Shown one piece after another: positions 683 to 61,374 of a stretch of 64,000 nucleotides of DNA. The translations under genes and the position numbers were made by a program. The number at the start of each line of letters is the position of its first letter. Within the stretch, counting starts at the first letter, position 1. This stretch comes from a virus. Where the stretch lies: the IMG/VR virus record IMGVR_UViG_3300032116_000031, positions 64,001-128,000 of that record; one strand, given 5' to 3'. The notes below the pieces were generated by a model. That model did no database searches and was not told where the DNA came from. It saw nothing but the letters and a program-made list of their open reading frames with translations.

Positions 683-2329
683 TTGGCATATATTAACAGG
701 AATTATCCGACATTATTAGATTTAAGGTTATCTGATAAAGATTATTATGACATACAAATGTCTGATTACAGTGTTATTTGTAATTGCAATGACATTGTAA
801 ATCCTATTATCTGTATGAATTTTAATTCAACAGATGTAGTTTATAGTGATAATGAATGGGATATGGCTATATCTCCTTCTGGTGTTACGATAACTAATTT
901 TGGTATAACTGGATATGATAATCGTTTTTCTGATAGTTTAGATTCTTCTTGGGGGTTGGACGGCGAAAAGAGATTTTTTGTGAAGAAGGTGGACGGCGAT
1001 AATTTTTGCTACGATATTCTTAGTGGATCAACTACTCAATTATGCGGGGGCTTTTATCAGGGATTCTATAAGTTAGAAGGTTATGATTACCAGACATTAC
1101 CCGACTACTATAAAGATGGATGGACCGCAGAATTTTATTTGGCTAAAAGCGGATGTACTTGCATTTCAGAGTTACCAACCCTAAACGAAACTTATCCTAA
1201 TAACGAAGGAATATTTTATTATTACGGTACAAGAGCTGAAAATAAGTTCTGCTCTGTAAAAGAGCATTTACTCTCCTATGAGGTTTCAAGTGGGGTAACT
1301 TTCCTAAGCTCAATTATAAAAGATACTTCCCATGTAACTCCTCCAAGTGATACAGCTTCTTTCTTATTTTATAATTGTCCTACATTAAATGAATTCTATT
1401 TGAATGCAACAGGTGTGACTTTTACTCTTCCTGATTGTTGCGATAATTTAAAATACAATGCCCTCGCTTTTAGGATTACAGATGAAGGCAAAATAGGTTA
1501 TAGATACTTAGCAACTTCTGGGACTTGTGTAGCTGGTAAATACGAAGAGGATTTAATGGTTTTTGAAAAATATAGTACCGAAAACATTTTTGTAGATGAC
1601 ACATTTAGGTTAGTTACCATTAAATTTAAAAACGATGAACACTTAACCTGCAAACCCGAAGAACAAACTTTTGGTGTACTTAGCATATACGTTGACGGTT
1701 ATTTGAAATTAAGGGAATATAATTTCCCTAATATTATACCTCAAGCCTTTGATGATTTAGCTTCTAAACAATTAGGTGTACCATACAACATAAGTATTGG
1801 CGGTGGAACCCAAGGCTTGTTAGAAATGCAGACCGATACTCCAACTGAATATGAAGTTTGTGATTATAAATTTTATTTAAAGAAAGATCAAAAATTCAAA
1901 GGAGCTAGGATAAACGGAGTCGATTATTTTACAGTTGTAGATTACGATATTACTATACCTGATGAAATAGTCTCATTCTTAACGCAGCACTTGGATAATA
2001 AATTCGCTGAAATAGAAACTAAAATAACCAGCAATTATGTTGAATTTATTTGTAGATTTGTAGTAGATGATTTCGAGAAAGTATTTTATTCTGTTGATGT
2101 AACTGAAGGTATAACAGACGCTTGTTGTAATCCTAATTTACCAGAATATTCACAAAGCAGTCTTTTGAAAATAAATTGTTTTAAATTCACCACTGATAAC
2201 AATATTTGTGGTATTTTAGAAGAAAATTTTGCAGGTAGCTTTATAGGTCAAATAAAAAGCTTTTGTTTATACGGTCAACCCTTAGATTATCAAGCTATTA
2301 AATGTAATTACAATATATATAACTCTTAA
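683..2329 (+). CDS. Cys-rich virion structural protein with LamG/concanavalin-like segments
   Basis: 548 aa ORF; LSIYVDGYLK and FIGQIKSFCLYGQPL resemble LamG strands; 21 Cys. Confidence 0.5.
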   Translation: MAYINRNYPTLLDLRLSDKDYYDIQMSDYSVICNCNDIVNPIICMNFNSTDVVYSDNEWDMAISPSGVTITNFGITGYDNRFSDSLDSSWGLDGEKRFFVKKVDGDNFCYDILSGSTTQLCGGFYQGFYKLEGYDYQTLPDYYKDGWTAEFYLAKSGCTCISELPTLNETYPNNEGIFYYYGTRAENKFCSVKEHLLSYEVSSGVTFLSSIIKDTSHVTPPSDTASFLFYNCPTLNEFYLNATGVTFTLPDCCDNLKYNALAFRITDEGKIGYRYLATSGTCVAGKYEEDLMVFEKYSTENIFVDDTFRLVTIKFKNDEHLTCKPEEQTFGVLSIYVDGYLKLREYNFPNIIPQAFDDLASKQLGVPYNISIGGGTQGLLEMQTDTPTEYEVCDYKFYLKKDQKFKGARINGVDYFTVVDYDITIPDEIVSFLTQHLDNKFAEIETKITSNYVEFICRFVVDDFEKVFYSVDVTEGITDACCNPNLPEYSQSSLLKINCFKFTTDNNICGILEENFAGSFIGQIKSFCLYGQPLDYQAIKCNYNIYNS

Positions 2330-2339
2330 AGACCATAAT

Positions 2340-2693
2340 ATGAACTTTTATATAAAAGAAAATTCAACTTTACCTGTTCTAACAATGGAATTAATACAGA
2401 ATGGTATTAGTTCAAATAAAACTATGAATGAGCGGTTACAGAATGCAAACATTACTTTTTTTATGGAAGAAGTAGGTAGTTGTATTCCTGTAATTCAATG
2501 TGCGCCTTGCTGTATCTTGGTAGAACAAGAATGCAGCGATTGTCATGAAAAGGTTTACATTCAATATAAGTGGACCTTAGAGGATACAGCTAGAAAAGGT
2601 AAATATAAAGGGTGGTTTGAAATAACCTTTAATGACGATCAATCTGTTTTAATTGCACCCATTAGACAAACTCTTGATATAACAATTTTGTAA
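2340..2693 (+). CDS. Small virion protein, BppU N-terminal-like Ig fold
   Basis: FYIKENSTLP...YIQYKWTLEDT..KG.YKGWFEITF pattern. Confidence 0.45.
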   Translation: MNFYIKENSTLPVLTMELIQNGISSNKTMNERLQNANITFFMEEVGSCIPVIQCAPCCILVEQECSDCHEKVYIQYKWTLEDTARKGKYKGWFEITFNDDQSVLIAPIRQTLDITIL

Positions 2694-2698
2694 AAATA

Positions 2699-2749: not shown

Positions 2750-5700
2750 ATGAAAGGTGAATTAAAACGATTAAAAATTGAAGATATTGAATCCCTTCTT
2801 CACGGCTTTGATCCAGAGGAAGGGATTCGTTATATCGACTGTAATAACTTTTCTAATGAAGTTAAAATCTTTATTAGAAAAAACAGTGATGATAATGTAA
2901 CTATTAAAAAAGATACTTATAGACCTTTTTTATGGTTTAAGGGATTTGATTTTGATAGGGATTTTAAGTGGGAATATTTCGCCGTCCACATCACAGACTA
3001 CAACAAAGAAGAAAATACAATCTTCTATGATAATAAAATTCACCATCTAAATGAACACTTAGAAGTTGTAGGTGAAGTTAATAATGGTAGTGAATGTGTT
3101 CTAAGACGCTATCTATCTGATATAAAAGATAGACGTAAACTTTGCTTTAACAAAATGAAGCAATACAACGTCGAAATATCAGAGCAAATAACCCATATAG
3201 ATGAATCCAATAAAGTCGAAAGGCTCGAGGAGGGCTTCAAATATTTGGTTCATATAAATCCCCCACAAGAAGAAACCAAATACGATAACCCCTTAATATG
3301 TTACAATAAGAAAGGCGAAATCAAAAAAATCAATGGTAGTTTCAATAACCTAATTGATTTCTTCTTTGAGGGTGGTTTAGATATATGGAAAAGATCAGGT
3401 ATTTTCCTTGACCCATCTAAATTAAAGAGCTTTTGGTCCGATTCAACTGATTACCAAAAGCTGCTATTCTTTTTTGGCTTCCCAGCTAAAAACTTATTAT
3501 TTTCATTCCTAGATAAAAACGATGAAAATAATGAATACTTAGATCAGGATATACTAAAAAATAGTAGCGAAATTGATTATGAAGAAATCATCCATTTAAC
3601 ATTTGTAATATTCAATGAGAATGTTAGACAATCAAAATTATTTGAATTCTACGAAAAGAAAATCAAGAATAATGATATAGAGTTTCTTCAAAACCATAGT
3701 GATAAATTTGTTAAACATCTTAAACTAAAAATAGATGAAAATAAATTAGACTTCTTAGTGCAAGAAGAATTCTCTTTTGATTCTAAAAAAGGTTTTGCTA
3801 ATCTTAATACTCTATTCATAGATAACGGAATTGATTTATTTGTAGGTGAAGATAAGGTTTTCTATAAACTATCCGCTATTGAACAATATATGATTCAAAG
3901 TGGCAAAAGATTATTTAAGGGCTTTGAAGAATATCCTGAACTGAAAAGTTTAACAATGGATATTGAAACTAAAGGTCTACCTGAATTCTCATACAGGAAA
4001 GATGCAGCCTTGCATCCTACAATGGGTATGATCTTTAAAATAGGTATGTATTGCAACAATGGATATGAGAAAGTACTAAACGCAACGAATCAGGAAGAAG
4101 AATTAGAAATAATAGAGGAATTCTTTAGGATAACAATGGAGTTAAATCCAGACTTATTCTTGACATATAACGGCGAAGGCTTTGACTTTCCATTTATAGT
4201 TAAAAGATACGAAATATTAAAGAAATTATCAGATGAATATGAAACTTTTAATGCTATTAGGGATTTAATAAAAGATTATTATAAAAACCCTGAAGAAATT
4301 TATATTTCAAAAAATAATCTCTTTAACAGAAGAGAAGGTAATCTTAAAGTAGGTGGTAATAGTGAAACTTACACACAGACAAGCATATTAGGTATTAATA
4401 TGTGTGATACAATGTTTGCTGTAAAAAGAGCTTCCGCTATCAATAAATCTATCCCGAACTTTAAATTGAAAGATAACATTAAGTTTGCTAAATTAGCTAA
4501 ACCTAATCGTGTTTATGTTGAAGGAAATAAAATTGGCGATATTGAAAATTCTACTGCTCCATTCTATCTGAATGTTGAAAACGGTGATTGGTTTAAATAC
4601 CAAAAGGAAATTGCTTTTGAAAAAGGTATATATTCTTTTGATAAAGTAAAAAGGAAATCATTACAAACACAAGTATACGACAATGAGAACACATTATATC
4701 TTTGGGATGAAGAATATGATAAGATGTTTATGGATTCTTGTGTGAACACCTTAAAATTCACACCTGATGATGTAGAAGGCTTCTTTAAAACTGTATATGA
4801 GAAGTTTAAGAATTACGATAGACTGTGCTTTAGAATTGATGAATTTGTAGGTAAATGGTTAGAAAAGGAAGATAAAGTTAAATATGATTTTTTATATAAT
4901 GAATTAAAAAAATTAAGAACTAATTTAACTAATATCTCACTGTTCTATCCTGATAAAGATCTATCAAAATATATTAAAACTACTGGTGAAGATATTATCA
5001 GAAGATATTTGATAGATGATTTATGGGAAACGAATAAGTTAGATGAATTTTACAGTCAAGCTACTTTTTTGATTTCTAAGTGGTTGCCTACTTCATATCA
5101 AAGGGCTGCAACTATGGGTGGTGCTTCTGTATGGAAATTGCTTTTATCCGCATATTCTTACCAATATGGTTTAGGTATACCTAATTACGATGAACCAAAA
5201 GAATTTACTGGAGGACTTGTAGCAATGATTTCAGCGGGATATCACGGTAAGTCTTTTAAAGCCGACTTTTCTTCCCTTTATCCAGCTGAATTTTACGTGC
5301 ATGTTAATTCGCCTAAAATTGACTTGTACGGGGTTTATAAGCTCTTTATGTATTACGGCTGGTCTACTAGGATAAAGTACAAGCAGCTGATGAATGAGCA
5401 TAAAGAGAAGGGAGAATTGAGCCTAAGTAAGAAGTTTGAAGTACGTCAGTTACCTATCAAAATTCTTATCAACAGTTTTTATGGTATGATGGGTGCAGCT
5501 GGTGTAACACCATTTGCTGATTTGGTTGTAGCGCAAGGTATTACTTGTAATGGAAGACAACATTTGAGGCATCTTATTAAATGGTTTGCTGAAAAGGGAT
5601 ATGTTGCTACTATTGCTCACACTGACGGTGTTTTCTTTTCAATTAACGATGTTGATTTGGAATACAAGTACACTGGTAGAGGTATAAATTGGTTGGTAAC

Positions 5701-6838
5701 TAAAGGAAAAGAATATGTAGGCATTGCGGCACACGTTGCTGAATATAATGATTCTTTCATGAAGGGTATTATGGGTTTAGATATTGATGAAATTGTTGAA
5801 TCAGTTATTAACTTTTCAAAAGGTAATTACATTTACTTAAAAGAAGTTAAAGACAAGAAGACTGGTGAGGTGACAAATAAAATTGAAGTTATTGGAGGAG
5901 CTATCATTAAGAAGACTCAATCTGAATATATCACTGAATTTGTAGATAAAGAGGTTATTAAGTTAATGCAAAACAAACCCTTGGAATTTATAAATGCTTA
6001 TTGGGATTATATTAAGAAGATTGAAGAACAAAAAATTAATGTGAAGCTTATTGCATCTAAGGCTAAAATTAAAAAGACAAAAGCAGAATACTTGCAACAT
6101 ATTAAGGGGACTAATAAAAATGGTGCTCCACTGAATAGGCAAGTGCATATGGAATTATTGATTAATAACGATTTGGATATAGAACTTGGTGATGTAGTAT
6201 ATTATGTTAATAGCGGTAAATCCAAGGACGATAAAGACAGTTTGAGTCCTGCTACTACATTTGCTACTTGTGAATTAGGTGAATTGGATTTGAAGCAAAT
6301 TAACAATGTGATTAAAACAAGGAATCCTGAATACATTAAAACATTTCTATTAGGTATTCATAATAGAGGTTTATTAACTGTTAATCAGAAGGTGTTGGAC
6401 GGCGATATTTATGCAATTTTGGATGATATTGATAAGTGGAAAAATATCAAAACCAAAATTAGGAACTTGAAAAAAGGTGTGTTCGTGGATTTTATTAAGG
6501 TTGAATATGTGATTAACTGTTCTATTATTGATAGTTTCTCTGATTCACAAACAGTCAACTATAACACTGATCTTTATATCAATAAGTTCAATTCGGCTGT
6601 ACACCCACTTTTCGTATGTTTTAAACCAGAGATTAGAGAAAAGCTTATGATTAACTCATACGAAGATAGGCCCTTTATTTTAGAGCAAGATTTGACTTTG
6701 ATTAATAGCATACCATTCGAGAACCAAGCTAAAAATCAAGCTACTTATGAAGAAGTAATGGTTGTTACACCTGAAGAAATGGAGTATTGGAATTTAGTAG
6801 AAACTAATCCCGAAGACTTTGTTATAGAGCGTAAATAA
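2750..6838 (+). CDS. polB: Family B DNA polymerase with large insertions
   Basis: ExoI DIET, ExoII YNGEGFDFPFI, ExoIII YLIDD, motif A DFSSLYP, motif B KILINSFYG, motif C HTDG. Confidence 0.93.
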   Translation: MKGELKRLKIEDIESLLHGFDPEEGIRYIDCNNFSNEVKIFIRKNSDDNVTIKKDTYRPFLWFKGFDFDRDFKWEYFAVHITDYNKEENTIFYDNKIHHLNEHLEVVGEVNNGSECVLRRYLSDIKDRRKLCFNKMKQYNVEISEQITHIDESNKVERLEEGFKYLVHINPPQEETKYDNPLICYNKKGEIKKINGSFNNLIDFFFEGGLDIWKRSGIFLDPSKLKSFWSDSTDYQKLLFFFGFPAKNLLFSFLDKNDENNEYLDQDILKNSSEIDYEEIIHLTFVIFNENVRQSKLFEFYEKKIKNNDIEFLQNHSDKFVKHLKLKIDENKLDFLVQEEFSFDSKKGFANLNTLFIDNGIDLFVGEDKVFYKLSAIEQYMIQSGKRLFKGFEEYPELKSLTMDIETKGLPEFSYRKDAALHPTMGMIFKIGMYCNNGYEKVLNATNQEEELEIIEEFFRITMELNPDLFLTYNGEGFDFPFIVKRYEILKKLSDEYETFNAIRDLIKDYYKNPEEIYISKNNLFNRREGNLKVGGNSETYTQTSILGINMCDTMFAVKRASAINKSIPNFKLKDNIKFAKLAKPNRVYVEGNKIGDIENSTAPFYLNVENGDWFKYQKEIAFEKGIYSFDKVKRKSLQTQVYDNENTLYLWDEEYDKMFMDSCVNTLKFTPDDVEGFFKTVYEKFKNYDRLCFRIDEFVGKWLEKEDKVKYDFLYNELKKLRTNLTNISLFYPDKDLSKYIKTTGEDIIRRYLIDDLWETNKLDEFYSQATFLISKWLPTSYQRAATMGGASVWKLLLSAYSYQYGLGIPNYDEPKEFTGGLVAMISAGYHGKSFKADFSSLYPAEFYVHVNSPKIDLYGVYKLFMYYGWSTRIKYKQLMNEHKEKGELSLSKKFEVRQLPIKILINSFYGMMGAAGVTPFADLVVAQGITCNGRQHLRHLIKWFAEKGYVATIAHTDGVFFSINDVDLEYKYTGRGINWLVTKGKEYVGIAAHVAEYNDSFMKGIMGLDIDEIVESVINFSKGNYIYLKEVKDKKTGEVTNKIEVIGGAIIKKTQSEYITEFVDKEVIKLMQNKPLEFINAYWDYIKKIEEQKINVKLIASKAKIKKTKAEYLQHIKGTNKNGAPLNRQVHMELLINNDLDIELGDVVYYVNSGKSKDDKDSLSPATTFATCELGELDLKQINNVIKTRNPEYIKTFLLGIHNRGLLTVNQKVLDGDIYAILDDIDKWKNIKTKIRNLKKGVFVDFIKVEYVINCSIIDSFSDSQTVNYNTDLYINKFNSAVHPLFVCFKPEIREKLMINSYEDRPFILEQDLTLINSIPFENQAKNQATYEEVMVVTPEEMEYWNLVETNPEDFVIERK

Positions 6839-6875: not shown

Positions 6876-7251
6876 ATTCCTCGTATATTTTTCTATTTAT
6901 ATATCCGTATTTCTTTACAAGTTCGCCTGCCTTAGCATTTGCTTCATTTTCTATATCTCCACCTACATCTTTAATTTCGCCGTCCAACTCCCTATCCTCA
7001 TACTGCTTATAGTGAACTAACTCATGTGCTAAACTTCTCATTATATCAGCTAATAATCTATTCTTACCATAAACCATTATAATAGGCTTAAATCCAGAAT
7101 TCTTATCAAAGCTAAAATTAGCAAATGTTTTTAACCCATCCTTGTTATTCTTAATAACAATACTAGGATATTTTTTTAAGGATAATTCCTTATAGCAAAA
7201 TTCGCAAAAATTAATTAACGTCTGCTTTCTATGTTTTCCTAAAAAACTCAT
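6874..7251 (-). CDS. Small zincin-like metallopeptidase
   Basis: LAHELVH (HExxH) and a downstream ENEA. Confidence 0.65.
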   Translation of the reverse strand: MSFLGKHRKQTLINFCEFCYKELSLKKYPSIVIKNNKDGLKTFANFSFDKNSGFKPIIMVYGKNRLLADIMRSLAHELVHYKQYEDRELDGEIKDVGGDIENEANAKAGELVKKYGYINRKIYEE

Positions 7252-10638: not shown

Positions 10639-11814
10639 TTATCCGTCACAAGACAAGCAAGATAGATCAGTTGCTTTGGCTGCTATATCTCCTCTTAATA
10701 CTGATTCTGTTCTCATGTAATAAAGAGTTTTTACACCTTGCCTCCAAGCTTCTAGGTGGACGGCGTTAATGAATTTTGGATCCGCTTGTGCAGGAAATGC
10801 TAAATTCAATGACACCGCTTGATCTATATATTGTTGTCTTACTCCAGCTTGTTTAACTAAGTCCAATTGATTAATTTCCTTGAAAGTTTTAAACACATCT
10901 TTAACTGTATATGCTTTTGTTTCAAAATCCTCCTTAGAAATTTCAGAAACCTTTGTTAATTTGCCATCGAGATAACACCATTCATCTAAGAAATCTAATC
11001 CCTGAACTGAACCAGCATCTTGTAATATTTGGTCCCAAACTTGCTTAGTGTTATAACCAATATGATCCAAAACCTTTTCTAATTCATTGTTCTTTCTAAT
11101 AAACGTTCCTTTTAAGGATTGTTCGGTAAACAAATTAGAAGCCCACGGTTCAATTCCAGCACTAACGTTTCCGCTTAGCTTAGAATTAGAAACTGTTGGT
11201 GCAATAGCTCTAAGATGGGTATTTCTATAACCACTCTCTTTACACCATAATGGTTCTCCATATTCTGTTGCTAAATCTCTACTTGCCTTTTCTGATTCAA
11301 TTTTTAATTGGGAGAATATTTTACGGGTTTCAAATTGTGCCCTCAATCCCTCAAAAGGTAATCCTCTTTGTTGGAGGTAGGTATGCCAACCTAAAGTATT
11401 ATGTATAACGTATTTAACACCATTATTTGAACTAGTAAAATAATTATGATGTTCATCTACTGTTAAATCCGAATATTCAATATCAATATTTTCAGGTTGC
11501 CAAATTTCAACAATGGTGTTTAAATTATTATCTTGACTAACCATTACATTACCAACACTTAATTCATCTGCTCTAACATAATCAAGTGAACCATCTTTCA
11601 TTATAGTTAAGGTTGGATGCCATAATGAAGTATAAATAATACTACCACAATCTAATTTAATTGCTATCTGATCTTTAACTTCAACAATGGGTTTATGTGT
11701 TTCTAATATTTCCCTATAACATTTTTTTCTTTTATTTATGTCATAAGATAACACAAAATCACCGCATTTAGCATTTTCAATTGCTATTTCTTTTTTATTT
11801 ATTTTTATATTCAT
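10639..11814 (-). CDS. nrdA: Split-intein C-fragment (139 aa) fused to the C-terminal part of ribonucleotide reductase alpha
   Basis: Intein blocks TSLWHP, YSDLTVDEHHNYF, VIHN|T; then AIAPTVSNS, GIEP, QQYIDQAVSLN, KTLYY, CLSC. Confidence 0.92.
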   Translation of the reverse strand: MNIKINKKEIAIENAKCGDFVLSYDINKRKKCYREILETHKPIVEVKDQIAIKLDCGSIIYTSLWHPTLTIMKDGSLDYVRADELSVGNVMVSQDNNLNTIVEIWQPENIDIEYSDLTVDEHHNYFTSSNNGVKYVIHNTLGWHTYLQQRGLPFEGLRAQFETRKIFSQLKIESEKASRDLATEYGEPLWCKESGYRNTHLRAIAPTVSNSKLSGNVSAGIEPWASNLFTEQSLKGTFIRKNNELEKVLDHIGYNTKQVWDQILQDAGSVQGLDFLDEWCYLDGKLTKVSEISKEDFETKAYTVKDVFKTFKEINQLDLVKQAGVRQQYIDQAVSLNLAFPAQADPKFINAVHLEAWRQGVKTLYYMRTESVLRGDIAAKATDLSCLSCDG

Positions 11815-11816
11815 AA

Positions 11817-12851: not shown

Positions 12852-12862
12852 TTCAACTTGAA

Positions 12863-16530: not shown

Positions 16531-17091
16531 TTAGAGTTGATAACTATTTACACAGAAAGTGTTTTTAACGCCAGTGAAAGGAGTGAAAAATCTGTTTGTG
16601 TAATAATTCAAAGATAACAAGTCTTTCAACAAACTTCTGATACCTTTAAAATTAGGACCATCTTTCCAAATAGGGAGAATAGATAGTTGAGGAACAGCGT
16701 AGAAATCATTAGCATTAATTTCTTGCTGATAGATTACCCTTACTTCTTTTTCATCTGTTAGTTTACCTTGATTTCTCACTGATGCTGAATGGTCAACTAA
16801 TTTAAAGATGTAACGTGAATTTGGGTTTTGGTGGGTGGACGGCGAAATTCCGTTCTCATAATTTTTGTAAAGATAATCCTCCGTAATACCCCTCATATAA
16901 TCATGGAACAAGCCAGTAATCTGTTGAAAGGTGTGAACAATCTCTACTGAATTTTCAACCGCTAAATCAGGGTTTCCAAATTCTTTTGGTGTGGCAAAGA
17001 AATTCAACATAGACATCTCTTGTGCTGTTGAACCATCGTAGTAAATCAAGTGAAAAGTAAATTTTGTAGTAAACTCTTGATTTTCTTTCAT
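16531..17091 (-). CDS. Hypothetical protein
   Basis: 186 aa ORF in the replication cluster. Confidence 0.65.
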   Translation of the reverse strand: MKENQEFTTKFTFHLIYYDGSTAQEMSMLNFFATPKEFGNPDLAVENSVEIVHTFQQITGLFHDYMRGITEDYLYKNYENGISPSTHQNPNSRYIFKLVDHSASVRNQGKLTDEKEVRVIYQQEINANDFYAVPQLSILPIWKDGPNFKGIRSLLKDLLSLNYYTNRFFTPFTGVKNTFCVNSYQL

Positions 17092-26269: not shown

Positions 26270-26290
26270 TAATTTTATTTTCTTTAATTT

Positions 26291-49227: not shown

Positions 49228-49935
49228 ATGCAAACATACTATAAATTAAATGATTTTTTAGAAGGGATGCGGAAGGATGTGGACGGCGAATTCTATTATG
49301 AAATAAAAAACGACGGAATTTATAAAATTGAATTCTCCCATGCAGGTAAAAAAGGAGGTAGCGTCTTTGAATATAAATTCTATCCAGAATTAAATAACAA
49401 ATTTAAAGAAGTAGAAGCCTTAGAAATTTACGATATTGATAAAGGGACGGAATTATTTATGGATTGGTTTTCAGAAAATAACCAAAATATAGAAATTATG
49501 ACCAAAGAAGAGGTGAAAAACTTTTTGGATAAGAATGTTATCGAGGAATCAAATTCTTGCTGGAAGAATCCAAAACAATTAGCAAAAGCAATTAAAAACG
49601 GCTTGGAAGTACCTAATTGTATCCCTGATGAAAAGTACGCCCTGAAAGAATCGAATTACTTTATCGGTAATAAGAAAAGAGAATTGAATAAAAAATATGA
49701 GAAGATAATGGATTGGTTGGAAGAAGTGGTCGAAAGTGGGGATAAAGATTACGCTGAAAAGATAATGAAGATAATTGAAAAGTGGAAGAAAAGCTATGAA
49801 GACAAAATAAGAAATGCTAAAAGCTATTTGAGAGAAAATAAAGATATTAAAATCCTTGACTTAAAAGAATATATAACAAAAAATGAAACTGCTAAAAACA
49901 AGATTAGCAGTTTCATTAAAAATTACGGCAATTAA
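49228..49935 (+). CDS. Hypothetical protein
   Basis: 235 aa; TATTTATA box at 49199-49206; several [ILV]xE sites. Confidence 0.65.
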   Translation: MQTYYKLNDFLEGMRKDVDGEFYYEIKNDGIYKIEFSHAGKKGGSVFEYKFYPELNNKFKEVEALEIYDIDKGTELFMDWFSENNQNIEIMTKEEVKNFLDKNVIEESNSCWKNPKQLAKAIKNGLEVPNCIPDEKYALKESNYFIGNKKRELNKKYEKIMDWLEEVVESGDKDYAEKIMKIIEKWKKSYEDKIRNAKSYLRENKDIKILDLKEYITKNETAKNKISSFIKNYGN

Positions 49936-51914
49936 TTTTGCATGAAAATTTGCTTATTTTCTTGCTTTTGTTTTGATCGCTCGAATACTTCTTCTTCATG
50001 TGAATTTTCGAACAAGCAGTAGTAAACGGATACATCTTCTGTTCTGCCTATCCTCCAACTTCTTGCTTCTGCTTGTTCGTGTTCACCGCTATTCCAATCT
50101 GGGCTATTGATAATGGCTATATCACCCTTCGTTAAATTGTGACCTGTTCCTAAAGTTTTAATATTACCGATGATAACTTTAACATCATCATCTTTTTGGA
50201 ATCTATCAATCAACTCCTGTTTCTTTTGTTGGGTCATTGTCGCATTAATCCCCACAGCTATTTTACCGAAATGCTTTAGGAACCCCTCATATTCTTCCTT
50301 GAAATGGGTGAAGATAATCACCTTTAACCCTTCGTCTATTTTATTGTCTACAAAATTCGTGGTATGAGGAATCTTGATTTTTGATAAAAATTCCCTCATT
50401 TTTATTGATTGACTTACGACCATTAAATCCTCCACGTTCACATTTTTAATATTCTTCTCAAGCATATATTCTTTCCATAATTCCCGATATTTTAATTTTT
50501 CGTTTGGGGATAATTCAAAATATAAAGGGAAAACATATTTTGTTGGGAAAAAGTCCAAAACTTCTGTTTTTTTACGAATTATTTGTGCATGTTTAATTCT
50601 TTGATATAGTTCTTCACTGTTAGTGTTTTCTACCTTTTTATCACCTATTTTTCTACCTAACACTATCACCTTTTTTCTATTATCTTCAAAGCCGCTTCTT
50701 AGGAGCGCATCACAATCAGATGAAGTTAAATCTGAAACAGACTTGTTTTGATTATTGACGTTAATACTCCATGTTTTACTTCGACCATTTCTAGCACCCT
50801 TTTGTTGAATTATATTCAGGATTGTTTTAACCCTTGAATGACCTTTAACATTAGACGATAGCAGTTCTAAAATTTCTGCTTTCAAGGCTTTGGTTTTAGC
50901 GCTATCCATTACTTGTTCATAGGCATTACAGTAGGTGAAGGCATATTCTTTATATTTCTCTAAAACATCTTGGAACCAGCCTTCTACTACAATTACATCT
51001 GAAATGTTTTTATTTATTGTCCTACAAATATTATAGAAATCAATATTTCTTTCTATTGGTGTTCCAGATAAACCGATGATTTTTTGAACAGACCTTTGGG
51101 ATGCCAACATTTTTATACAACTAGATTGTATGCTAGTTGGGTTTTTAGCTCTGTGTATTTCATCTAATATAATACAGTCAAAGTTCTGTAAAAGAAGATC
51201 ATTAGTTGCTTTATCTGTATTCTTTGATTTTTTTACAGATATGAAATTTTTTAGGATTTCGTAGTTTATTATTGTGAAGGTGGACGGCGAATTATCCCAT
51301 ACTGATCCTGAAATTATTTTCGCTGTTTCATTGTAGGTTTCTATTTCCCTACGCCAATTTAACTTCAAACTGGCCAATGTAATAACCAGTATGTTTTTAT
51401 AGCCATTATCCAAGGCTGCAACAATAGATTGACAAGTTTTACCTAAACCCATATCATCCCAATTAAAAGCTGGGTTACGTAACTTCATAAATTTAATCCC
51501 TTCAATCTGGTGAGGAAATAATTTACGATTAGCCTTGTTGTTATTGTCCCATTTTTCAGCGTCGAATGTTACTTGATTAATTTGTTTTTTGAAGGGATTT
51601 TCGCAATCATCTTTATAAACAAAGAAACTTCTATTCTTATATGCAAAATGATAAATCTCGGATGTTTCACCGTATAGGTAATTAATTTTAATTTCAGTAA
51701 ACTCACTGTTTGTGCCGAATTGCTTGTTTAAATATTCCACATTTCGCCGTCCAACATTCAAACTAAGATTACCAAAATCATAACCAGAATACCTGAAATT
51801 CATTTTCAAATACTCATTATCAAATGGAGATAACCTTCCACCACTTTCCATCATCTTTTTCAGATGTTTGATGTAAGGATTGAAACCCCCATAATCCCTT
51901 AATAATTCTTCCAT
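49932..51914 (-). CDS. SNF2-family helicase
   Basis: DDMGLGKT, ILDEIH, LSGTP, GTGHNLT, QAEARSWRIG; start MEELL chosen to avoid overlap with tnpB. Confidence 0.9.
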   Translation of the reverse strand: MEELLRDYGGFNPYIKHLKKMMESGGRLSPFDNEYLKMNFRYSGYDFGNLSLNVGRRNVEYLNKQFGTNSEFTEIKINYLYGETSEIYHFAYKNRSFFVYKDDCENPFKKQINQVTFDAEKWDNNNKANRKLFPHQIEGIKFMKLRNPAFNWDDMGLGKTCQSIVAALDNGYKNILVITLASLKLNWRREIETYNETAKIISGSVWDNSPSTFTIINYEILKNFISVKKSKNTDKATNDLLLQNFDCIILDEIHRAKNPTSIQSSCIKMLASQRSVQKIIGLSGTPIERNIDFYNICRTINKNISDVIVVEGWFQDVLEKYKEYAFTYCNAYEQVMDSAKTKALKAEILELLSSNVKGHSRVKTILNIIQQKGARNGRSKTWSINVNNQNKSVSDLTSSDCDALLRSGFEDNRKKVIVLGRKIGDKKVENTNSEELYQRIKHAQIIRKKTEVLDFFPTKYVFPLYFELSPNEKLKYRELWKEYMLEKNIKNVNVEDLMVVSQSIKMREFLSKIKIPHTTNFVDNKIDEGLKVIIFTHFKEEYEGFLKHFGKIAVGINATMTQQKKQELIDRFQKDDDVKVIIGNIKTLGTGHNLTKGDIAIINSPDWNSGEHEQAEARSWRIGRTEDVSVYYCLFENSHEEEVFERSKQKQENKQIFMQN

Positions 51915-51984
51915 AACTTTTATTTTAAATTTTAGTGTTTTGATATTTATAAAGGACAAATATAATTCCGTAAAATTATGAAAT

Positions 51985-53211: not shown

Positions 53212-53290
53212 AAAATTAATTTTATTATTAATTAATTGCCATTCTCGTTTTTGTTTAAAAAACAAAAAATCAATGAAATTAACGAGATGA

Positions 53291-54379: not shown

Positions 54380-54437
54380 ATTATTGTTATTTTCCACAAA
54401 GGTAATGAAAAAAACAATATGGTTAAAATTTTTTTAA

Positions 54438-54962: not shown

Positions 54963-55046
54963 TTATTTTATTCTGGGTCTTTTTTTATTTTTTGAATTTC
55001 GATTAATGGTAACTCTTTTGCTAAAATGATAGCTTTCTTTTTCATA

Positions 55047-56300: not shown

Positions 56301-56335
56301 ATTTTGTTTTTTTATATAAATATATTTTTTTGTAA

Positions 56336-57427: not shown

Positions 57428-57429
57428 AA

Positions 57430-58593
57430 TTATTTAATTAATTTTAAAAAGTTTTCTGTTTCTAATTGGTTGATTTTCTCACCTAATTCTTTACCTTTGA
57501 CGTTATATTCTTTAGCAACATCATCTCCACTTAAAGATAGTTGAAATTTTATAAAAGCGTCGGAGAAGCTTTCATTAAATCCTAAAATTTCATTTAAGAA
57601 ATATCTCAAATCATTATCAGAAATAATCACCTTAGAGATTTTTCTTTTTAAGATTGGGGCATTTTCAGCACTTAAATTCTTCAAGGAAATTAAAGTAGAT
57701 ATATTATAGGCTTCTTTACTTGTGTATTTATAATTGTTTAATTTAGAGCTTACCAATTCAGGACTGTTGTTTAACAATAAGGTAGCTATTATTATTTCAG
57801 GGTTTTTATATTCAATAAAATCGTAATTGACTTTCAAATCAGGGAATATTTGAGGGAATAAATCCAAGTCTTTTATCATGTTTAAATAAAACACTGTGGA
57901 TTTAGCTTTACTTAAGCCCTTTAAAAATTCATCTCTAATTCTTTCAAATGATACTCCTTTTAGAGAGTTGTTGGATTGGACGGCGGATTTAATATCTGGG
58001 TTCAAATCAGAATTAGTTATTGCCGCAAATCTTATAGCTCTCAATATTCTAATTCTATCTTCATTGAATCTATCCTCTGCATTGCCCACAGTTCTTATCT
58101 GACCGCTTTTTATGTCATCAACGCCTCCAACTAAGTCAATTACTTTATCCTTCGTTATATCGTAATATAGAGCGTTTATAGTTAAATCACGTCTTTTAAC
58201 GTCTGAATCAATATTCGCAAATTTAATAGATTCTGGTCTTCTACCATCTTTATATTCACCATCTTCTCTGAAGGTAGCTATTTCATATTCTTCACCGTTT
58301 ATGATAACAGAAATTACGCCAAAAGATTTGCCCTTTGGAATTATGGTATCATAACCTTCTTTTTCCAATATTTCAATTACTCTATCTGGGTTAGCATCAG
58401 TAGCTAAATCGTAATCTTTTGGTTCTTTACCGTAAAATAAGTCCCTGACAGCTCCACCCACAATGAATAAATCGTGCCCATTTCTATTAAATTGTTTTGC
58501 TAAAACTTTAATGTCACTTGGAACATTCATTTTTAAGTTTTCAGATTCTTCGTTTAGTCTTCTAATTATAGACTCATTTATTAAAATTTTCAT
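57430..58593 (-). CDS. cca: CCA tRNA nucleotidyltransferase (class II)
   Basis: VGGAVRD, DYD, TFR, RRDLTINAL, EDRIRILRAIRF, ERI. Confidence 0.88.
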   Translation of the reverse strand: MKILINESIIRRLNEESENLKMNVPSDIKVLAKQFNRNGHDLFIVGGAVRDLFYGKEPKDYDLATDANPDRVIEILEKEGYDTIIPKGKSFGVISVIINGEEYEIATFREDGEYKDGRRPESIKFANIDSDVKRRDLTINALYYDITKDKVIDLVGGVDDIKSGQIRTVGNAEDRFNEDRIRILRAIRFAAITNSDLNPDIKSAVQSNNSLKGVSFERIRDEFLKGLSKAKSTVFYLNMIKDLDLFPQIFPDLKVNYDFIEYKNPEIIIATLLLNNSPELVSSKLNNYKYTSKEAYNISTLISLKNLSAENAPILKRKISKVIISDNDLRYFLNEILGFNESFSDAFIKFQLSLSGDDVAKEYNVKGKELGEKINQLETENFLKLIK

Positions 58594-59468: not shown

Positions 59469-59469
59469 C

Positions 59470-59500
59470 AAAAAAGGGGACCAAATGGGTCCCCTTTTTT
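59470..59500. terminator. Bidirectional intrinsic terminator
   Basis: AAAAAAGGGGACC-AAATG-GGTCCCCTTTTTT between convergent genes. Confidence 0.88.
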
Positions 59501-61374
59501 TATTCGTATGTTTTTTCAAATTTCCAATTGCCACAATCCCAAACCCTATCAAAACCCAAATAAATCATCATTTCTTTTTCCGTCATTGAGCTATCCAATT
59601 CAGGATATTCTTTAAGGATTTTATGTTTTTGGTACCGCATTCTATTGAATAGCTTTGCACCGTATTTTTTATTATAATAATGGTACACTGGAGGTTGCTG
59701 TTCAATTAGTTTGAAACCTAGTTTTGTATATAGGTTATTTTCTCCATCTGGTGTCCATCTTATATCTGCGAATGTTTTTATTTTGGACGGCGAAAAATCT
59801 CGCTCAAATTTTCTTAACATTTTTGATGCCAAACCCCGAATATGATAATTGTAGTTTGTGGCATATCTGTTCAAATCATATACACCTGCTTCACTTGTCC
59901 TTTTAAAAGTCATAACCCCCACCATTTCGCCGTCCAACACCGCACCATACCGTATAGGAGAAGTATCACCCCCCTGTATATGATATTTCTCTAAAAAATC
60001 AAAACTCTCATTGTGAGAAATCTCAATTATTTCACACGACCTAGCGTGCCCCTTCTTACCTAAATTTAAACCACAAGCATTTAATATCTTATTCCTTAAT
60101 AAATCTGGTTTCTCAAGATACTCATTCTCAAATATATGATACAATTTAATTCCATCTTCCTTGGCTTGATTTGTCTTATCTAAATGATAATATCTATCCT
60201 TACCACCATTATTCAAACTGCCATTAACCAAACCCTCACAATGATAAAGCAAACCGTTAGCCTCAAAACCAATGTTGCCATAAACAACATCCACCTCCTT
60301 ATTATTAGATAATTTTTTCTTGGAAATCTTCTCACCCGTAACCTCCGTTATCACTTCTCCTACCCATTGCTCGAACTTAGAAAAAGTACTTGCACAACTA
60401 GGACAACCAGACTTTAATGTCATATGTTCATTCTGCGACTTCTTGAAAACCCCATGTTTAGGACATATAATATCCATCTTCGTTTTACTATTTACATTCT
60501 CCGTACATAAAGAATAATCATATTTATCCTTATGTATTTTTCGAGATTTTTCGATAAATTCATTTAAACAAAATCTACTAGCCTCTAATGAACATTCAGG
60601 ACAACCACTACCTCCAACATGATTATCAAATCTTTGATGAAACCATCCGTGTTTATTGCATTTTATTTTAATTTTACTGCCAATATTAGTATATTCTGTA
60701 AAATCATATTCGTATTTATCAGAATGAACAGCTATAACTTTCAATAAAAGTTCCTCATCAGTAAAACGTTGGAGTTCAGCTCCTTCTATTTTAGCACATA
60801 CAGGGCATTTTTGCCCCTGTAAATGAGCTGAAACTACCTGTGAAAATTCACCATGTGTAGGGCATATTATCGTTATTTTATCAGTGTTAATTTTAAAAGA
60901 AGCTTTACTATAATCATAACCCCTATCTTTATGAATAATTTTACATTTCTCTAAAAATGCGGTTAATTTTTCTTCAGGAGTACCACCATACTTACAAACA
61001 GGACATTTATACCCCTTTTTATGAACAGCAGGGATAGTTTGAAATTCACCGTGTTTTCTACAAATAATAGTTACAGGTGTTTTGTCATTTATATATTCAA
61101 CCTTAGAATAATCGAATTCATCACCGTGAATAGTTTTTGCCCTTTCTATAAATTCATTGGTTTTAGATAAATCAACAACAGGGATTTTCTTACACTCCCT
61201 GCATTTAGCACCCCTCAAATGAACGCTTGCTATAACCTCAAAATCACCATGTTTTGAACAAGTAATAATAACAGGTTTTTTGGTGTTAATAAAATTAACT
61301 TTTTCGTAGGAATATTCATCCCCATGAACCTTTCGCGCCATTTCAATAAATTCTTCTTGCGTAGTTTTTTTCAT
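59500..61374 (-). CDS. Putative homing endonuclease with five Zn-ribbon (DUF723/CapR-like) repeats and a PD-(D/E)xK-like nuclease
   Basis: 5x F...H..Y.Y...I.C..HG.F...H..G..C..C; EVD...GFEANG..YH; TACCTTTG at 61397-61390 favours start MKKTT. Confidence 0.75.
   Translation of the reverse strand: MKKTTQEEFIEMARKVHGDEYSYEKVNFINTKKPVIITCSKHGDFEVIASVHLRGAKCRECKKIPVVDLSKTNEFIERAKTIHGDEFDYSKVEYINDKTPVTIICRKHGEFQTIPAVHKKGYKCPVCKYGGTPEEKLTAFLEKCKIIHKDRGYDYSKASFKINTDKITIICPTHGEFSQVVSAHLQGQKCPVCAKIEGAELQRFTDEELLLKVIAVHSDKYEYDFTEYTNIGSKIKIKCNKHGWFHQRFDNHVGGSGCPECSLEASRFCLNEFIEKSRKIHKDKYDYSLCTENVNSKTKMDIICPKHGVFKKSQNEHMTLKSGCPSCASTFSKFEQWVGEVITEVTGEKISKKKLSNNKEVDVVYGNIGFEANGLLYHCEGLVNGSLNNGGKDRYYHLDKTNQAKEDGIKLYHIFENEYLEKPDLLRNKILNACGLNLGKKGHARSCEIIEISHNESFDFLEKYHIQGGDTSPIRYGAVLDGEMVGVMTFKRTSEAGVYDLNRYATNYNYHIRGLASKMLRKFERDFSPSKIKTFADIRWTPDGENNLYTKLGFKLIEQQPPVYHYYNKKYGAKLFNRMRYQKHKILKEYPELDSSMTEKEMMIYLGFDRVWDCGNWKFEKTYE

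What the first reader, a model, noticed from the sequence alone, without database searches (positions are those of the whole stretch)
957..59936. A GC-rich 9-10 bp signal (KTGGACGGCG) is written into the coding sequence across the window
Seen: exact TGGACGGCG on + at 957, 990, 6396, 10757, 16836, 25366, 30676, 39738, 40482, 44604, 49280, 51281, 57977, 59784. Its reverse complement CGCCGTCCA starts at 2980, 6978, 13096, 16404, 32782, 35768, 39174, 40107, 45331, 45776, 51745, 55865, 56488, 59928. That is 28 copies, 14 per strand, about one per 2.3 kb. One-mismatch copies occur at 22951, 27358, 33683, 35984 and 39937. The base 5' of the 9-mer is always G or T and the 3' flank is usually A then A/T (consensus KTGGACGGCGAWW). 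All copies lie inside genes and are read in four frames: [LV]DG 14x, [SP]PS 7x, AV[HQ] 5x, GRR 2x. They use GC-rich codons (GAC GGC, TCG CCG TCC, GCC GTC, CGG CGA) that are otherwise scarce here. A base-composition estimate at ~29% GC gives about 0.02 expected copies, so enrichment is roughly a thousand-fold. Inference: selection acts on the DNA, as for uptake sequences, Chi, KOPS or HIP1, which is not a typical lytic phage feature. The motif is non-palindromic and unpolarised. Candidate roles are binding sites for a phage protein that coats, organises, packages or ejects the genome; mimicry of a host Chi-like or self mark against nucleases or spacer acquisition; or decoys that titrate a host defence protein. 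The shared GCCGTC core with the Neisseria DUS may be coincidence.
Basis: partly seen in the sequence, partly recalled or inferred. Interest (0 to 1): 0.92.

Follow-up and report, generated by a model that had tools for sequence, protein, structure and literature searches.

The report
Strand-specific DNA word across giant phage
A giant phage of environmental bacteria writes one nine-letter DNA word about every 2,000 bases on both strands, even through its genes; the word is kept by selection, probably as a signal for the phage's own DNA-copying machinery, but its reader is unproven.

Summary
TGGACGGCG occurs 28 times in the window (0 in 100 shuffles). It occurs 67 times in the 136-kb contig, against a mean of 6.6 (max 10) in 200 synonymous-codon shuffles. 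Seven copies belong to a protein repeat. The other 60 (32 +, 28 -) are a DNA-level signal: a G/T-rich, C-poor tract of about 18 nt, then GnGK-TGGACGGCG-AAA.

The word reshapes the proteome. [LV]DG[EV] occurs 27 times against 2.5 expected, and 25 of those 27 are spelled by the word. Relatives at 62-76% nucleotide identity keep 61-83% of sites letter for letter, against 3-14% for control 9-mers.

The word is confined to one lineage of T4-like jumbo phages, probably of Bacteroidota. Two complete relatives carry 1-2 copies in 356-401 kb.

The word-bearing lineage carries an archaeo-eukaryotic-type primase fused to a helicase, and no T4-type primase was found in it. The wordless relatives show the reverse.

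My best guess, about 30%, is that these are preferred priming sites. A Chi-like role, protein docking, nicks and uptake-like roles remain open. Host genomes could not be tested.

This scan noted analogous evenly spaced strand-specific words before, in crAss-like phages.

The parts
957..965 (+). exact word, sense to gene, read LDG(E)
990..998 (+). exact word, sense, read VDG(D); 33 nt after the previous copy (tandem)
2980..2988 (-). exact word, antisense to the DNA polymerase gene, read FAVH
6396..6404 (+). exact word, sense in the DNA polymerase gene, read LDG(D)
6978..6986 (-). exact word, sense, read LDG(E)
10757..10765 (+). exact word, antisense in the nrdA C-terminal piece, read NAVH
13096..13104 (-). 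exact word, sense in the nrdA N-terminal piece, read LDG(V)
16404..16412 (-). exact word, sense in the DnaB-like helicase gene, read GRR
16836..16844 (+). exact word, antisense, read SPS(T)
25366..25374 (+). exact word, antisense in the 1688-aa gene, read SPS(K)
30676..30684 (+). exact word, antisense, read NAVQ
32782..32790 (-). exact word, sense, read VDG(E); kept in relative L088
35768..35776 (-). exact word, sense in the tail sheath gene, read VDG(V); relatives have D-G in AT-rich codons here
39174..39182 (-). exact word, sense, read LDG(E)
39738..39746 (+). exact word, antisense, read SPS(N); kept in L139
40107..40115 (-). exact word, sense, read VDG(E)
40482..40490 (+). exact word, antisense, read SPS(N)
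44604..44612 (+). exact word, sense inside the primase-helicase gene, read VDG(E)
45331..45339 (-). exact word, antisense in the UvrD/RecB-like helicase gene, read PPS(N)
45776..45784 (-). exact word, antisense in the same helicase gene, read SAVQ
49280..49288 (+). exact word, sense, read VDG(E)
51281..51289 (+). exact word, antisense in the SF2 helicase gene, read SPS(T); kept in L098, absent in L002
51745..51753 (-). exact word, sense, read GRR; kept in L002 and L098
55865..55873 (-). exact word, sense in the caspase-like gene, read LDG(E); absent at the same place in L002
56488..56496 (-). exact word, sense, read VDG(E)
57977..57985 (+). exact word, antisense in the CCA-adding enzyme gene, read SAVQ
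59784..59792 (+). exact word, antisense, read SPS(K); convergent pair with 59928 (144 nt)
59928..59936 (-). exact word, sense, read LDG(E)
22951..22959 (-). one-mismatch copy TGGACGGCA with the usual flanks (ggTGGACGGCAaaa)
27358..27366 (+). one-mismatch copy TGGACGGCC
33683..33691 (+). one-mismatch copy TGGACGGAG; relatives L088, L139 and L174 have the exact word here
35984..35992 (-). one-mismatch copy TCGACGGCG
39937..39945 (-). one-mismatch copy TGGACGGCA
40973..45076 (+). candidate reader (inferred): 1367-aa protein with a BT4734-like archaeo-eukaryotic primase domain (residues 167-285) and a DEAD/ResIII helicase core (647-777). It is present wherever word-bearing contigs cover this region and absent from the wordless relatives.

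Best explanation
The word is the core of an oriented DNA signal about 30 nt long: a G/T-rich, C-poor tract, then GnGK, TGGACGGCG, AAA. One lineage of T4-like jumbo phages keeps it by selection about every 4-5 kb on each strand. I think a phage-encoded enzyme that works on one strand most likely reads it. My specific proposal is that these are preferred start sites for primer synthesis by the lineage's own primase-helicase, the 1367-aa BT4734-like AEP primase fused to an SF2 helicase. In this model the complementary strand (5'-TTT CGCCGTCCA MC, then an A/C-rich tract, 3') is the template. The GC-rich core is the recognition element. Synthesis starts opposite the T run, giving an A-started primer. 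The 3' flank serves as a docking platform. A T4-like phage replicates largely by recombination, so forks cross any region in either direction. Sites are therefore needed on both strands without polarity, and close convergent pairs in intergenic DNA could act as two-way start points. What is shown: DNA-level selection, orientation, the flanks, lineage restriction, and co-occurrence with the primase type. What is inferred: who reads the word, which strand is read, and that priming is the function.
For: (1) DNA-level selection. 67 copies against a mean of 6.6 in 200 codon shuffles. 25 of 27 [LV]DG[EV] peptides are spelled by the word, and that peptide is 11-fold over-represented (27 against 2.5). 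Exact conservation is 25 of 30 sites against 14.5% of control 9-mers in G002, 14 of 23 against 3.0% in G001, and 10 of 15 against 3.3% in G003.
(2) Strand-specific architecture. Positions -20 to -3 are 66-72% G+T (background about 50%) and 8-9% C, in the sense, antisense and intergenic classes alike. The logo from 187 distinct sites agrees.
(3) Spacing on each strand is more even than random in G000. The + strand has CV 0.57 (P<0.001) and the - strand 0.69 (P=0.027). Orientation alternates more than chance (38 runs against 30.8, P=0.04). With the 8-mer the values are 0.58 and 0.68. Mean spacing is 4.3-4.9 kb per strand. That lies inside the 1-6 kb Okazaki range quoted for T7 (PMC12839067, section 3.5 and Discussion).
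(4) Published parallels. G/T-rich flanks raise T7 primase binding up to 10-fold (PMC6136900, abstract). The 3' flanks select about 26 strong sites in T7 (PMC12839067, abstract). The AEP primase of pRN1 primes only at GTG and starts just 5' of it with ATP (PMC2965215, passages).
(5) Co-occurrence. The AEP primase-helicase is present in G000, G001, G003 and L247-L251, all rich in the word. PF08800 finds none in G005-G008, which have 0, 0, 2 and 1 copies. The two complete wordless genomes have a T4 gp61-like Toprim primase instead. No homologue of it was found in G000-G003 or in any word-bearing locus. In G007 it sits between homologues of two G000 genes whose interval in G000 is fully sequenced and lacks it.
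(6) Dialect. In L251 the primase-helicase is only 37% identical, and there the core relaxes to TGGACGG (22 copies in 20 kb, 9 with CG).
(7) Close opposite-strand pairs are always convergent: 9 against 0 at 100 nt or less (P=0.004).
Against: The link with the primase rests on a single evolutionary split, so phylogeny alone could explain it. About two dozen other genes are likewise shared by word-bearing contigs and missing from G007 at E<=1e-5. Several have no known function, for example g045, g082, g100 and g102. All word-bearing genomes are fragments (CheckV 3-41%), so a T4-type primase may lie in unsequenced DNA. Even spacing was not significant in G003 (P 0.40 and 0.69) or G004 (0.26 and 0.21), and only partly in G001 (0.047 and 0.14). 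G002 (0.054 and 0.027) shares sites with G000. Loss of a site is not visibly compensated by a nearby same-strand gain (5 same against 4 opposite). Known primases use 3-5 nt words, and a 9-nt invariant core would be unprecedented. The fold model of the primase part is poor (mean pLDDT 59), and Foldseek gave no hit at E<=0.001. A later check noted by this scan on a similar priming idea for crAss-like phages priced it low. No biochemical or read-end data exist.
Confidence: 0.3

Rival explanations
1. Chi-like sites. A helicase-nuclease travels from a DNA end and recognises the word on one strand. The enzyme could be the host's AddAB/RecBCD or a phage enzyme. It then stops degrading and loads the recombinase onto the G/T-rich tract 5' of the word. 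This protects phage DNA and feeds recombination-dependent replication.
For: The word is oriented and G-rich, and it has a G/T-rich, C-poor tract on exactly the side that would become the 3' tail. Both orientations are present and each is fairly evenly spaced, as needed if ends can arise anywhere. The phage has a RecA/UvsX-like protein and a UvrD/RecB/AddA-like SF1 helicase next to the primase-helicase gene. Some lambdoid phages strongly over-represent host Chi (PMC3784561, abstract).
Against: Known Chi words are 5-8 nt (recalled). This one has 9 invariant positions plus informative flanks. In lambdoids the Chi-rich phages are those without their own recombinase, and their Chi sites are concentrated and polar between the origin and the packaging site (PMC3784561, abstract). 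This phage has a recombinase, and its sites are unpolarised. The word follows the phage lineage and shifts dialect with it. The UvrD-like helicase is also present in wordless G007 (33% identity). Chi logic does not predict that close pairs are always convergent. The host chromosome could not be examined.
Confidence: 0.2
2. Docking sites on double-stranded DNA for a lineage-specific phage protein that binds as a monomer. Candidates are a genome-organising, condensing or packaging-associated protein, or a global transcription factor or roadblock like the stoperator repressors of some mycobacteriophages.
For: High information content (9 invariant bases plus flanks). Restriction to one lineage, with many lineage-specific genes of unknown function. 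Intergenic convergent pairs could be dimer operators between small genes (L130).
Against: Orientation is independent of transcription: 30 sense and 24 antisense. Stoperators follow the direction of transcription and are mostly intergenic (recalled). A dsDNA binder gives no reason for each strand's sites to be evenly spaced on their own, or for a 20-nt compositional tract on one side only. No DNA-binding protein could be tied to the word.
Confidence: 0.15
3. Sites of programmed single-strand nicks in virion DNA, as in T5, phiKMV-like phages and the tf/Rembedalsseter group.
For: Those nicks sit at conserved 9-nt-scale words that are enriched across a phage group and lie inside genes (PMC11780129, passages). 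Their function is unknown, so nothing excludes a similar enzyme here.
Against: In Rembedalsseter all 13 words are on one strand. Here there are 32 on + and 28 on -, at roughly two to three times the density. Convergent copies only 24-37 nt apart (G000 7890/7918; four pairs in L130; one in L211) would turn two nicks into a double-strand break. This last point is inference. It could not be tested, because all runs that hold the phage are kept as contigs and not as reads.
Confidence: 0.08
4. A mark borrowed from or aimed at the host. It could mimic a host uptake signal or self mark, act as a decoy for a host defence protein, or be the target of a sequence-specific base modification.
For: The genome statistics match uptake sequences closely: a 9-nt core with A/T flank, both strands, few tolerated reading frames, distorted peptide frequencies and some intergenic inverted pairs (compare PMC2817400, abstract). 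The phage encodes purine-nucleotide enzymes that might go with modified DNA: a MazZ-like dGTP diphosphohydrolase, an HD protein and a GMP-reductase-like protein.
Against: The paired form of the word was sought in one genome for each of 185,579 species. It gave 18 stretches. Seventeen are single chance palindromes in DNA of 41-74% GC. One is a phage-like contig in a bin that is otherwise not enriched (62 against 51 for the reversed word). Two capped scans of IMG/VR listed 108 and 111 stretches. Every low-GC contig with several dispersed copies belonged to this lineage, or (L130) is syntenic with its relative G007. A target for modification or restriction would not be expected to be enriched.
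Confidence: 0.1
5. A miniature mobile or gene-conversion element that spreads the word without benefit to the phage.
For: Where a relative lacks a site it usually differs at 3-7 of the 9 positions and not at 1. There are only 17 one-mismatch copies beside 67 exact ones.
Against: Gains replace sequence of the same length, with no target duplication. They often sit at a pre-existing L/V-D-G peptide and reach the word through synonymous changes, for example TTAGATGGT against TTGGACGGC. No hairpin partner exists for 64 of 67 copies. Sites are held for long periods at fixed orthologous places.
Confidence: 0.05

Closest known systems
DNA uptake sequences of Pasteurellaceae (USS) and Neisseriaceae (DUS)
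   Same: A 9-12 nt non-palindromic core with a weaker A/T-rich flank. About one copy per 1-2 kb. Equal numbers on both strands. Coding copies are confined to a few reading frames, and the encoded peptides are over-represented. Some intergenic inverted pairs exist (PMC2817400, abstract). Even spacing of USS is recalled, not read.
   Different: Those signals belong to chromosomes of naturally competent bacteria and are read by the uptake machinery. This one belongs to a lytic-type T4-like jumbo phage lineage. No bacterial carrier was found. The effect on peptides is about 11-fold here, against about 2-fold there.
Strong priming sites of phage and plasmid primases (T7 gene 4 primase; pRN1 ORF904 AEP primase)
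   Same: An oriented word read on one strand. Flank composition matters (G/T-rich flanks, 3' flank elements). Spacing lies in the 1-6 kb range. A primase with strict template specificity exists in the AEP superfamily.
   Different: Known recognition words are 3-5 nt and are not visibly written into the genome by selection. Here 9 positions are invariant and the proteome is bent to fit them. No priming data exist for BT4734-like primases fused to SF2 helicases.
Chi sites, including Chi-rich lambdoid phages
   Same: A G-rich oriented word, hugely over-represented and embedded in genes, with a plausible link to recombination-dependent replication.
   Different: The word is longer. It is unpolarised. 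The phage has its own recombinase. The word follows the phage lineage. The host's word is unknown.
Nick-associated words of T5, phiKMV-like phages and tf/Rembedalsseter (WACTRTGAC)
   Same: A conserved word of about 9 nt, enriched across a phage group, lying within genes, with unknown function.
   Different: Those words lie on one strand and number 4-13 per 40-45 kb. Here both strands carry the word at 0.5-0.9 per kb, with close convergent pairs.
Evenly spaced, strand-alternating GC-rich words of crAss-like phages
   Same: GC-rich core beside a compositionally biased tract. Both strands, inside genes, per-strand even spacing, lineage-specific dialects, a Bacteroidota phage.
   Different: A different word in an unrelated phage group (a T4-like jumbo myovirus). 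Density is about three times higher (every 4-5 kb per strand against 5-8 kb). Their reader is unknown too.

Membership tests
Chi (crossover hotspot instigator) sites | Recognised by the host RecBCD/AddAB enzyme and over-represented, with replication-oriented skew, in the host chromosome | not testable with these tools
No host genome handle could be obtained. Only the paired form was scanned across species genomes.
Chi (crossover hotspot instigator) sites | Short word of 5-8 nt (recalled range) | tested here: not met
   9 invariant positions, plus information at -5, -4, -2, -1 and +1 to +4.
Chi (crossover hotspot instigator) sites | In Chi-rich phages: polar and concentrated between origin and packaging site; the phage lacks its own recombinase (PMC3784561, abstract) | tested here: not met
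   The cumulative orientation count stays between 1 and 6 across 136 kb. A RecA/UvsX-like gene is present.
DNA uptake sequences (USS/DUS) | Core of about 9-12 nt with flanking consensus, both strands, frame-restricted coding copies that raise the encoded peptides | tested here: met
DNA uptake sequences (USS/DUS) | Carried by the chromosome of a naturally competent bacterium whose uptake machinery prefers it | tested here: not met
   The carrier is a phage lineage. The scan of 185,579 species genomes for paired words gave no low-GC bacterial carrier. Single-copy enrichment in the true host remains untested.
Nick-associated phage words | A strand interruption at each word in virion DNA | not testable with these tools
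   All 24 runs listed are kept as contigs, so no read ends are visible.
Nick-associated phage words | Words confined to one strand (Rembedalsseter: 13 of 13) | tested here: not met
   32 on + and 28 on -. PMC11780129, passages.
Primase recognition / strong priming sites | A cognate primase encoded by the same genome and co-distributed with the word | tested here: met
   The BT4734-like AEP-helicase is in all word-bearing contigs that cover the region and in none of G005-G008. This is a single evolutionary contrast.
Primase recognition / strong priming sites | Per-strand spacing compatible with Okazaki fragments and more even than chance | tested here: inconclusive
   Significant in G000 and G002, partly in G001, not in G003 or G004.
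Primase recognition / strong priming sites | Primers start at the word in vitro or in vivo | not testable with these tools
   Needs biochemistry or 5'-end mapping.
Stoperator-type repressor sites (Cluster A mycobacteriophages; features recalled) | Asymmetric sites oriented with the direction of transcription, mostly between genes | tested here: not met
   30 sense, 24 antisense, and only 6 of 60 intergenic.
Miniature mobile repeats (REP/MITE-like) | Insertion that adds length, with own secondary structure or target duplication | tested here: not met
   Same-length substitutions at orthologous places. 64 of 67 copies have no inverted partner. No Rfam family in the window.

The most novel reading that the evidence does not exclude
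This phage lineage swapped the T4-type primase for an archaeo-eukaryotic-type primase-helicase with an unusually long template specificity. It then wrote that enzyme's start signal into its genome every 4-5 kb on each strand, changing hundreds of codons and many amino acids to do so. Lagging-strand initiation would then be programmed by sequence, and convergent intergenic pairs would serve as two-way origins. The same logic may explain the analogous words that this scan noted in crAss-like phages.
Probability: 0.25. Interest if true: 0.85.

Novelty: new variant of a known kind. Interest (0 to 1): 0.72.

Why it matters
Genome-wide oriented words such as Chi, uptake sequences and KOPS have each revealed a machine that reads DNA while moving along it. 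Here such a word is far stronger than in those classic cases: about 870-fold over composition, with the main encoded peptide 11-fold enriched. It sits in an uncultured jumbo-phage lineage whose near-identical DNA is held by contigs of runs from 13 studies. Either way the word is a sharp diagnostic tag for this lineage in metagenomes.

Tried and rejected
Protein repeat. Only 7 of 67 copies, the GWTAQFHN repeat in three giant genes at genome 2-11938, outside the window, are explained this way.

Hairpin, terminator or RNA element. Only the cluster at genome 7890-7944 has an inverted partner. Ordinary terminators in the contig use other stems. Rfam gave 0 matches in the window.

Other words in other relatives. 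The enriched 8-9-mers in 80 MCP-related loci were terminator hairpins (L075) or protein repeats (L036, L047). Complete G007 has no dispersed GC-rich word; its top word is the promoter-like TATCTTTGCA.

Host test. TnpB as a host clue gave at most 43% identity to plasmids of many phyla. The single genome-contig scan went on the paired form. I could not count the single word in any Bacteroidota genome.

Nick or polymorphism test. The runs are held as contigs only, and the variant table showed 40 of 1387 places. That gave no test of read ends or of variation at the words.

Compensatory turnover. Not significant: 3 against 1, 5 against 4, and 5 against 5 at 300, 600 and 1000 nt.

Even spacing in G003 and G004. 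Not significant.

Fold of the primase part. Mean pLDDT was 59 and pTM 0.28. Foldseek found nothing at E<=0.001. The best weak rows were AEP enzymes: LigD polymerase domain (E 0.09), ASFV PrimPol, human Pri1 and RepB'. The PDB sequence search found nothing at E<=1. PHROGs, Pfam and NCBIfam left most lineage-specific genes unnamed.

L295. This contig has 4 copies but is an unrelated iteron-like cluster within 250 nt. L243 has a single pair.

Literature. A search for the word itself listed only unrelated papers (20 of 647 listed). Searches on phage nicks, primase sites and over-represented words found no description of this word or lineage. Supplements are closed, so Table S2 of PMC12839067 was not seen.

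Full report
WHAT IS THERE. The window is bases 64001-128000 of a single 136,214-bp virus contig with 31.5% GC. IMG/VR classes it as linear and CheckV rates it 41% complete. It encodes a T4-type major head protein, a tail sheath, a family-B DNA polymerase, a DnaB-like helicase, RNase H, a RecA/UvsX-like protein and ribonucleotide reductase. Its nearest GenBank head proteins are about 40% identical, from Microcystis phage Mel-JY01 and the Flavobacterium 'immuto' phages. Relatives in IMG/VR reach 356-412 kb, so this is a fragment of a jumbo phage. Intergenic DNA is enriched for TATAAATA (4.0 per kb against 0.32 per kb genome-wide). It also holds several copies of CCTTATCTTTGCA-like words. From recalled consensus sequences I read these as T4-type late promoters and Bacteroidota TAnnTTTG promoters. 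That fits a Bacteroidota host, but it is inference.

TGGACGGCG occurs at all 28 stated places, 14 per strand, and in none of 100 dinucleotide shuffles. The contig has 67 copies (39 +, 28 -) against 0.077 expected from composition. No other family of k-mers comes near it. Shuffling synonymous codons within each gene keeps the word's own rare codons and so favours chance. It still gives a mean of 6.6 and a maximum of 10 in 200 trials. The five listed one-mismatch copies are real, and the window has two more. The contig has 17, five of them TGGACGGCA.

TWO CLASSES OF COPY. Seven copies, all followed by CAA, encode W-T-A-Q in a repeated peptide (GWTAQFHN). The repeat lies in three giant plus-strand genes outside the window. 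The other 60 fall into these groups:
- 28 sense copies read [LV]DG
- 2 sense copies read GRR
- 16 antisense copies read SPS
- 8 antisense copies read AV[HQ]
- 6 intergenic copies

THE PROTEOME IS BENT TO THE WORD. [LV]DG[EV] occurs 27 times against 2.5 in residue-shuffled proteins (maximum 7 of 300). In 25 of those 27 cases it is spelled K-TG-GAC-GGC-G, although GAC is 18% of Asp codons and GGC is 13% of Gly codons.

THE SIGNAL IS LONGER AND ORIENTED. In 67 sites, and again in 187 distinct sites pooled from five contigs, there is information at -5, -4, -2 (G) and -1 (G/T). There is also information at +1 to +3 (A) and +4 (T). Positions -20 to -3 are G/T-rich (66-72% against about 50%) and C-poor (8-9% against 14-18%). 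This holds separately in the sense, antisense and intergenic copies, with P<0.001 against random windows of the matching strand for the sense and antisense classes. It is therefore a property of the DNA and not of codons.

RELATIVES.
- Word-bearing contigs: 49 copies in 66 kb, 34 in 72 kb, 42 in 45 kb and 28 in 40 kb. The reversed control word occurs 0 times in each. Smaller contigs also carry it.
- These contigs share 50-90% amino-acid identity with the window's genome.
- Relatives with 45-52% head-protein identity lack the word: 0 in 72.6 kb, 0 in 56 kb, 2 in a complete 356-kb genome and 1 in a complete 401-kb genome. The 356-kb genome has no other dispersed GC-rich word.
- L130 has no homologue in this contig but carries 10 copies. 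Two of its genes match that 356-kb genome in the same order around 180-184 kb. It probably comes from the unsequenced part of the same lineage.
- Two capped IMG/VR scans listed 108 and 111 stretches. They produced no unrelated low-GC phage with dispersed copies. L295 is a local iteron-like cluster.

CONSERVATION AND TURNOVER. All nine letters are identical in 25 of 30 mapped sites in G002, against 14.5% of 22,539 control 9-mers. The figures are 14 of 23 against 3.0% in G001, and 10 of 15 against 3.3% in G003. Sites also turn over: 5 to 10 are private to G000, and 8 to 30 are private to each relative. Where a site is missing, the orthologous place often encodes the same L/V-D-G in AT-rich codons, or other residues, with no change in length. 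Sites therefore arise by substitution under selection, not by insertion.

ARRANGEMENT. There is no polarity along the contig. On each strand taken alone, spacing is more even than random in G000. The + strand has CV 0.57 (P<0.001) and the - strand has CV 0.69 (P=0.027). Orientation alternates more than chance (P=0.04). G002 gives 0.64 and 0.61 (P=0.054 and 0.027), but it shares many sites with G000. G001 gives 0.72 and 0.75 (P=0.047 and 0.14). G003 and G004 are not significant. I found no sign that a lost site is replaced by a nearby site on the same strand.

Opposite-strand neighbours 100 nt or less apart are convergent in 9 of 9 cases, with the A-runs facing each other (P=0.004). At 300 nt or less the count is 18 convergent to 6 divergent. 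In L130, L211 and genome 7890-7918 such pairs lie 24-37 nt apart in intergenic DNA.

WHO MIGHT READ IT. Many G000 genes are shared with word-bearing contigs and missing from the complete wordless G007. One has a domain that acts on DNA in a template-specific way. It is the 1367-aa product of window 40973-45076, with a BT4734-like N-terminal domain (PF08800, E=6e-11) and a DEAD/ResIII helicase core. The BT4734-like family is an independent family of the archaeo-eukaryotic primase superfamily (PMC5862659 and PMC11724360, passages). Its invariant Y-M-D-V-D-D stretch fits motif I, hhhDhD.

PF08800 finds no match in G005-G008. The two complete wordless genomes have instead a 341-359-aa Toprim protein of T4 gp61 size. 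Neither search found it in G000-G003 or in any word-bearing locus held. In G007 that gene lies between homologues of two G000 genes. The interval between those genes in G000 is fully sequenced and does not contain it.

In L251 the primase-helicase is only 37% identical while the sheath is 68% identical. There the word relaxes to TGGACGG: 22 copies in 20 kb, of which 9 have CG.

The fold model of the first 620 residues was poor. Foldseek gave nothing significant, though the best weak rows were AEP enzymes.

READING. The signal is oriented, lies on both strands, tends to be evenly spaced per strand and has a one-sided compositional tract. To me this points to an enzyme that reads one strand while moving along the DNA. 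Because of the primase swap I favour preferred priming sites, at about 30%. Three published results make this conceivable:
- T7 primase binds up to 10-fold better with G/T-rich flanks (PMC6136900, abstract).
- T7 primase chooses about 26 strong sites, spaced 1-6 kb, through 3' flank elements (PMC12839067, abstract and two sections).
- An AEP primase can be strictly word-specific and start with ATP just 5' of its word (PMC2965215, passages).

Main weaknesses of this reading:
- It rests on one phylogenetic contrast.
- All word-bearing genomes are fragments.
- The spacing statistics are mixed.
- No known primase has a 9-nt word.

A Chi-like role (about 20%) would also explain the orientation and the G/T-rich tract. 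It fits less well with the word's length, the phage's own recombinase, the lack of polarity and the lineage-bound dialect (PMC3784561, abstract). Docking of a duplex-binding protein, nick sites, host mimicry or a modification target, and a selfish repeat are less likely, for the reasons given under the rivals.

COMPARISON AND NOVELTY. In its genome statistics the word behaves most like an uptake sequence, but it fails that family's defining feature, a competent bacterial carrier. It fails tested features of Chi, nick words, stoperators and mobile repeats. It meets the testable features of priming sites only in part. My searches found no description of this word or of such a signal in this phage group. 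Earlier notes of this scan describe analogous, sparser words in crAss-like phages, also without a known reader. I therefore file it as a new variant of the known kind 'oriented genome-wide recognition words', with its function unproven.

Noticed in passing
window 51985-53265 (-), and 51964-54964: A 426-aa TnpB / Cas12f-like IS605 OrfB gene (HTH, OrfB and TNB domains) sits in the phage genome. Contigs of three runs join 51964 to 54964 on opposite strands. In other strains the 3-kb segment therefore appears inverted. It holds TnpB, the IMPDH/GMP-reductase-like gene and a small ORF.
   Followed up: partly
window 10639-14026 (-): The ribonucleotide reductase large subunit is split into two genes. 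The downstream piece begins with a HINT/intein-like domain, and a 344-aa gene with a weak HNH-endonuclease match lies between the pieces.
   Followed up: no
L189:13703-17155 (genome 13.7-17.2 kb) and window 53291-54397: A MazZ-like dATP/dGTP diphosphohydrolase N-domain fused to a 5'-nucleotidase-like region, an HD-domain protein and an IMPDH/GMP-reductase-like protein. This may be a purine-pool or DNA-base modification pathway. No PurZ-like gene was looked for.
   Followed up: no
genome 2-11938 (L189), outside the window: Three giant plus-strand genes (986, 1620 and 1319 aa) share a repeated peptide, GWTAQFHN. Its codons happen to contain the 9-mer. WTAQ occurs 10 times against 0.1 expected.
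   Followed up: partly
window 93-200 and 26270-26586: A shared intergenic element of about 60-90 nt containing AAAAAATATGCTTTT...TTTTCGACACTGTTATATAATAATTTACTAAAAGCATAT, with internal inverted repeats, occurs at two places 26 kb apart.
   Followed up: no
window 55488-58593 (-): A caspase-like peptidase C14 gene and a CCA-adding / poly(A) polymerase-family gene lie close together. G007 has no homologue of either.
   Followed up: no
window 59500-61392 (-): A 630-aa protein next to the head gene matches PHROG 'HNH endonuclease' families strongly (E=3e-135). It carries DUF723 / treble-clef zinc-finger repeats and a GNAT acetyltransferase-like C-terminus.
   Followed up: no
window 19222-20232 (-): A 336-aa protein with no family match ends in a strongly acidic tail (…EDDGYESDDSELPF), as single-stranded-DNA-binding proteins of T4-like phages do (recalled). 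G007 has no homologue at E<=1e-5.
   Followed up: no
L295:3180-3540: An unrelated viral contig holds four direct repeats of about 34 nt (…ACTGACCCGTTGGACGGCGAA…) within 250 nt of intergenic DNA. This is an iteron-like cluster that shares the 9-mer by chance.
   Followed up: partly
L211 (contig of a bin labelled Nitrososphaerota): A 3,953-bp contig with 6 copies of the word, including a convergent pair, sits in a 2.3-Mb bin. The bin is otherwise not enriched (62 copies against 51 for the reversed word). It looks like a mis-binned fragment of this phage lineage.
   Followed up: partly
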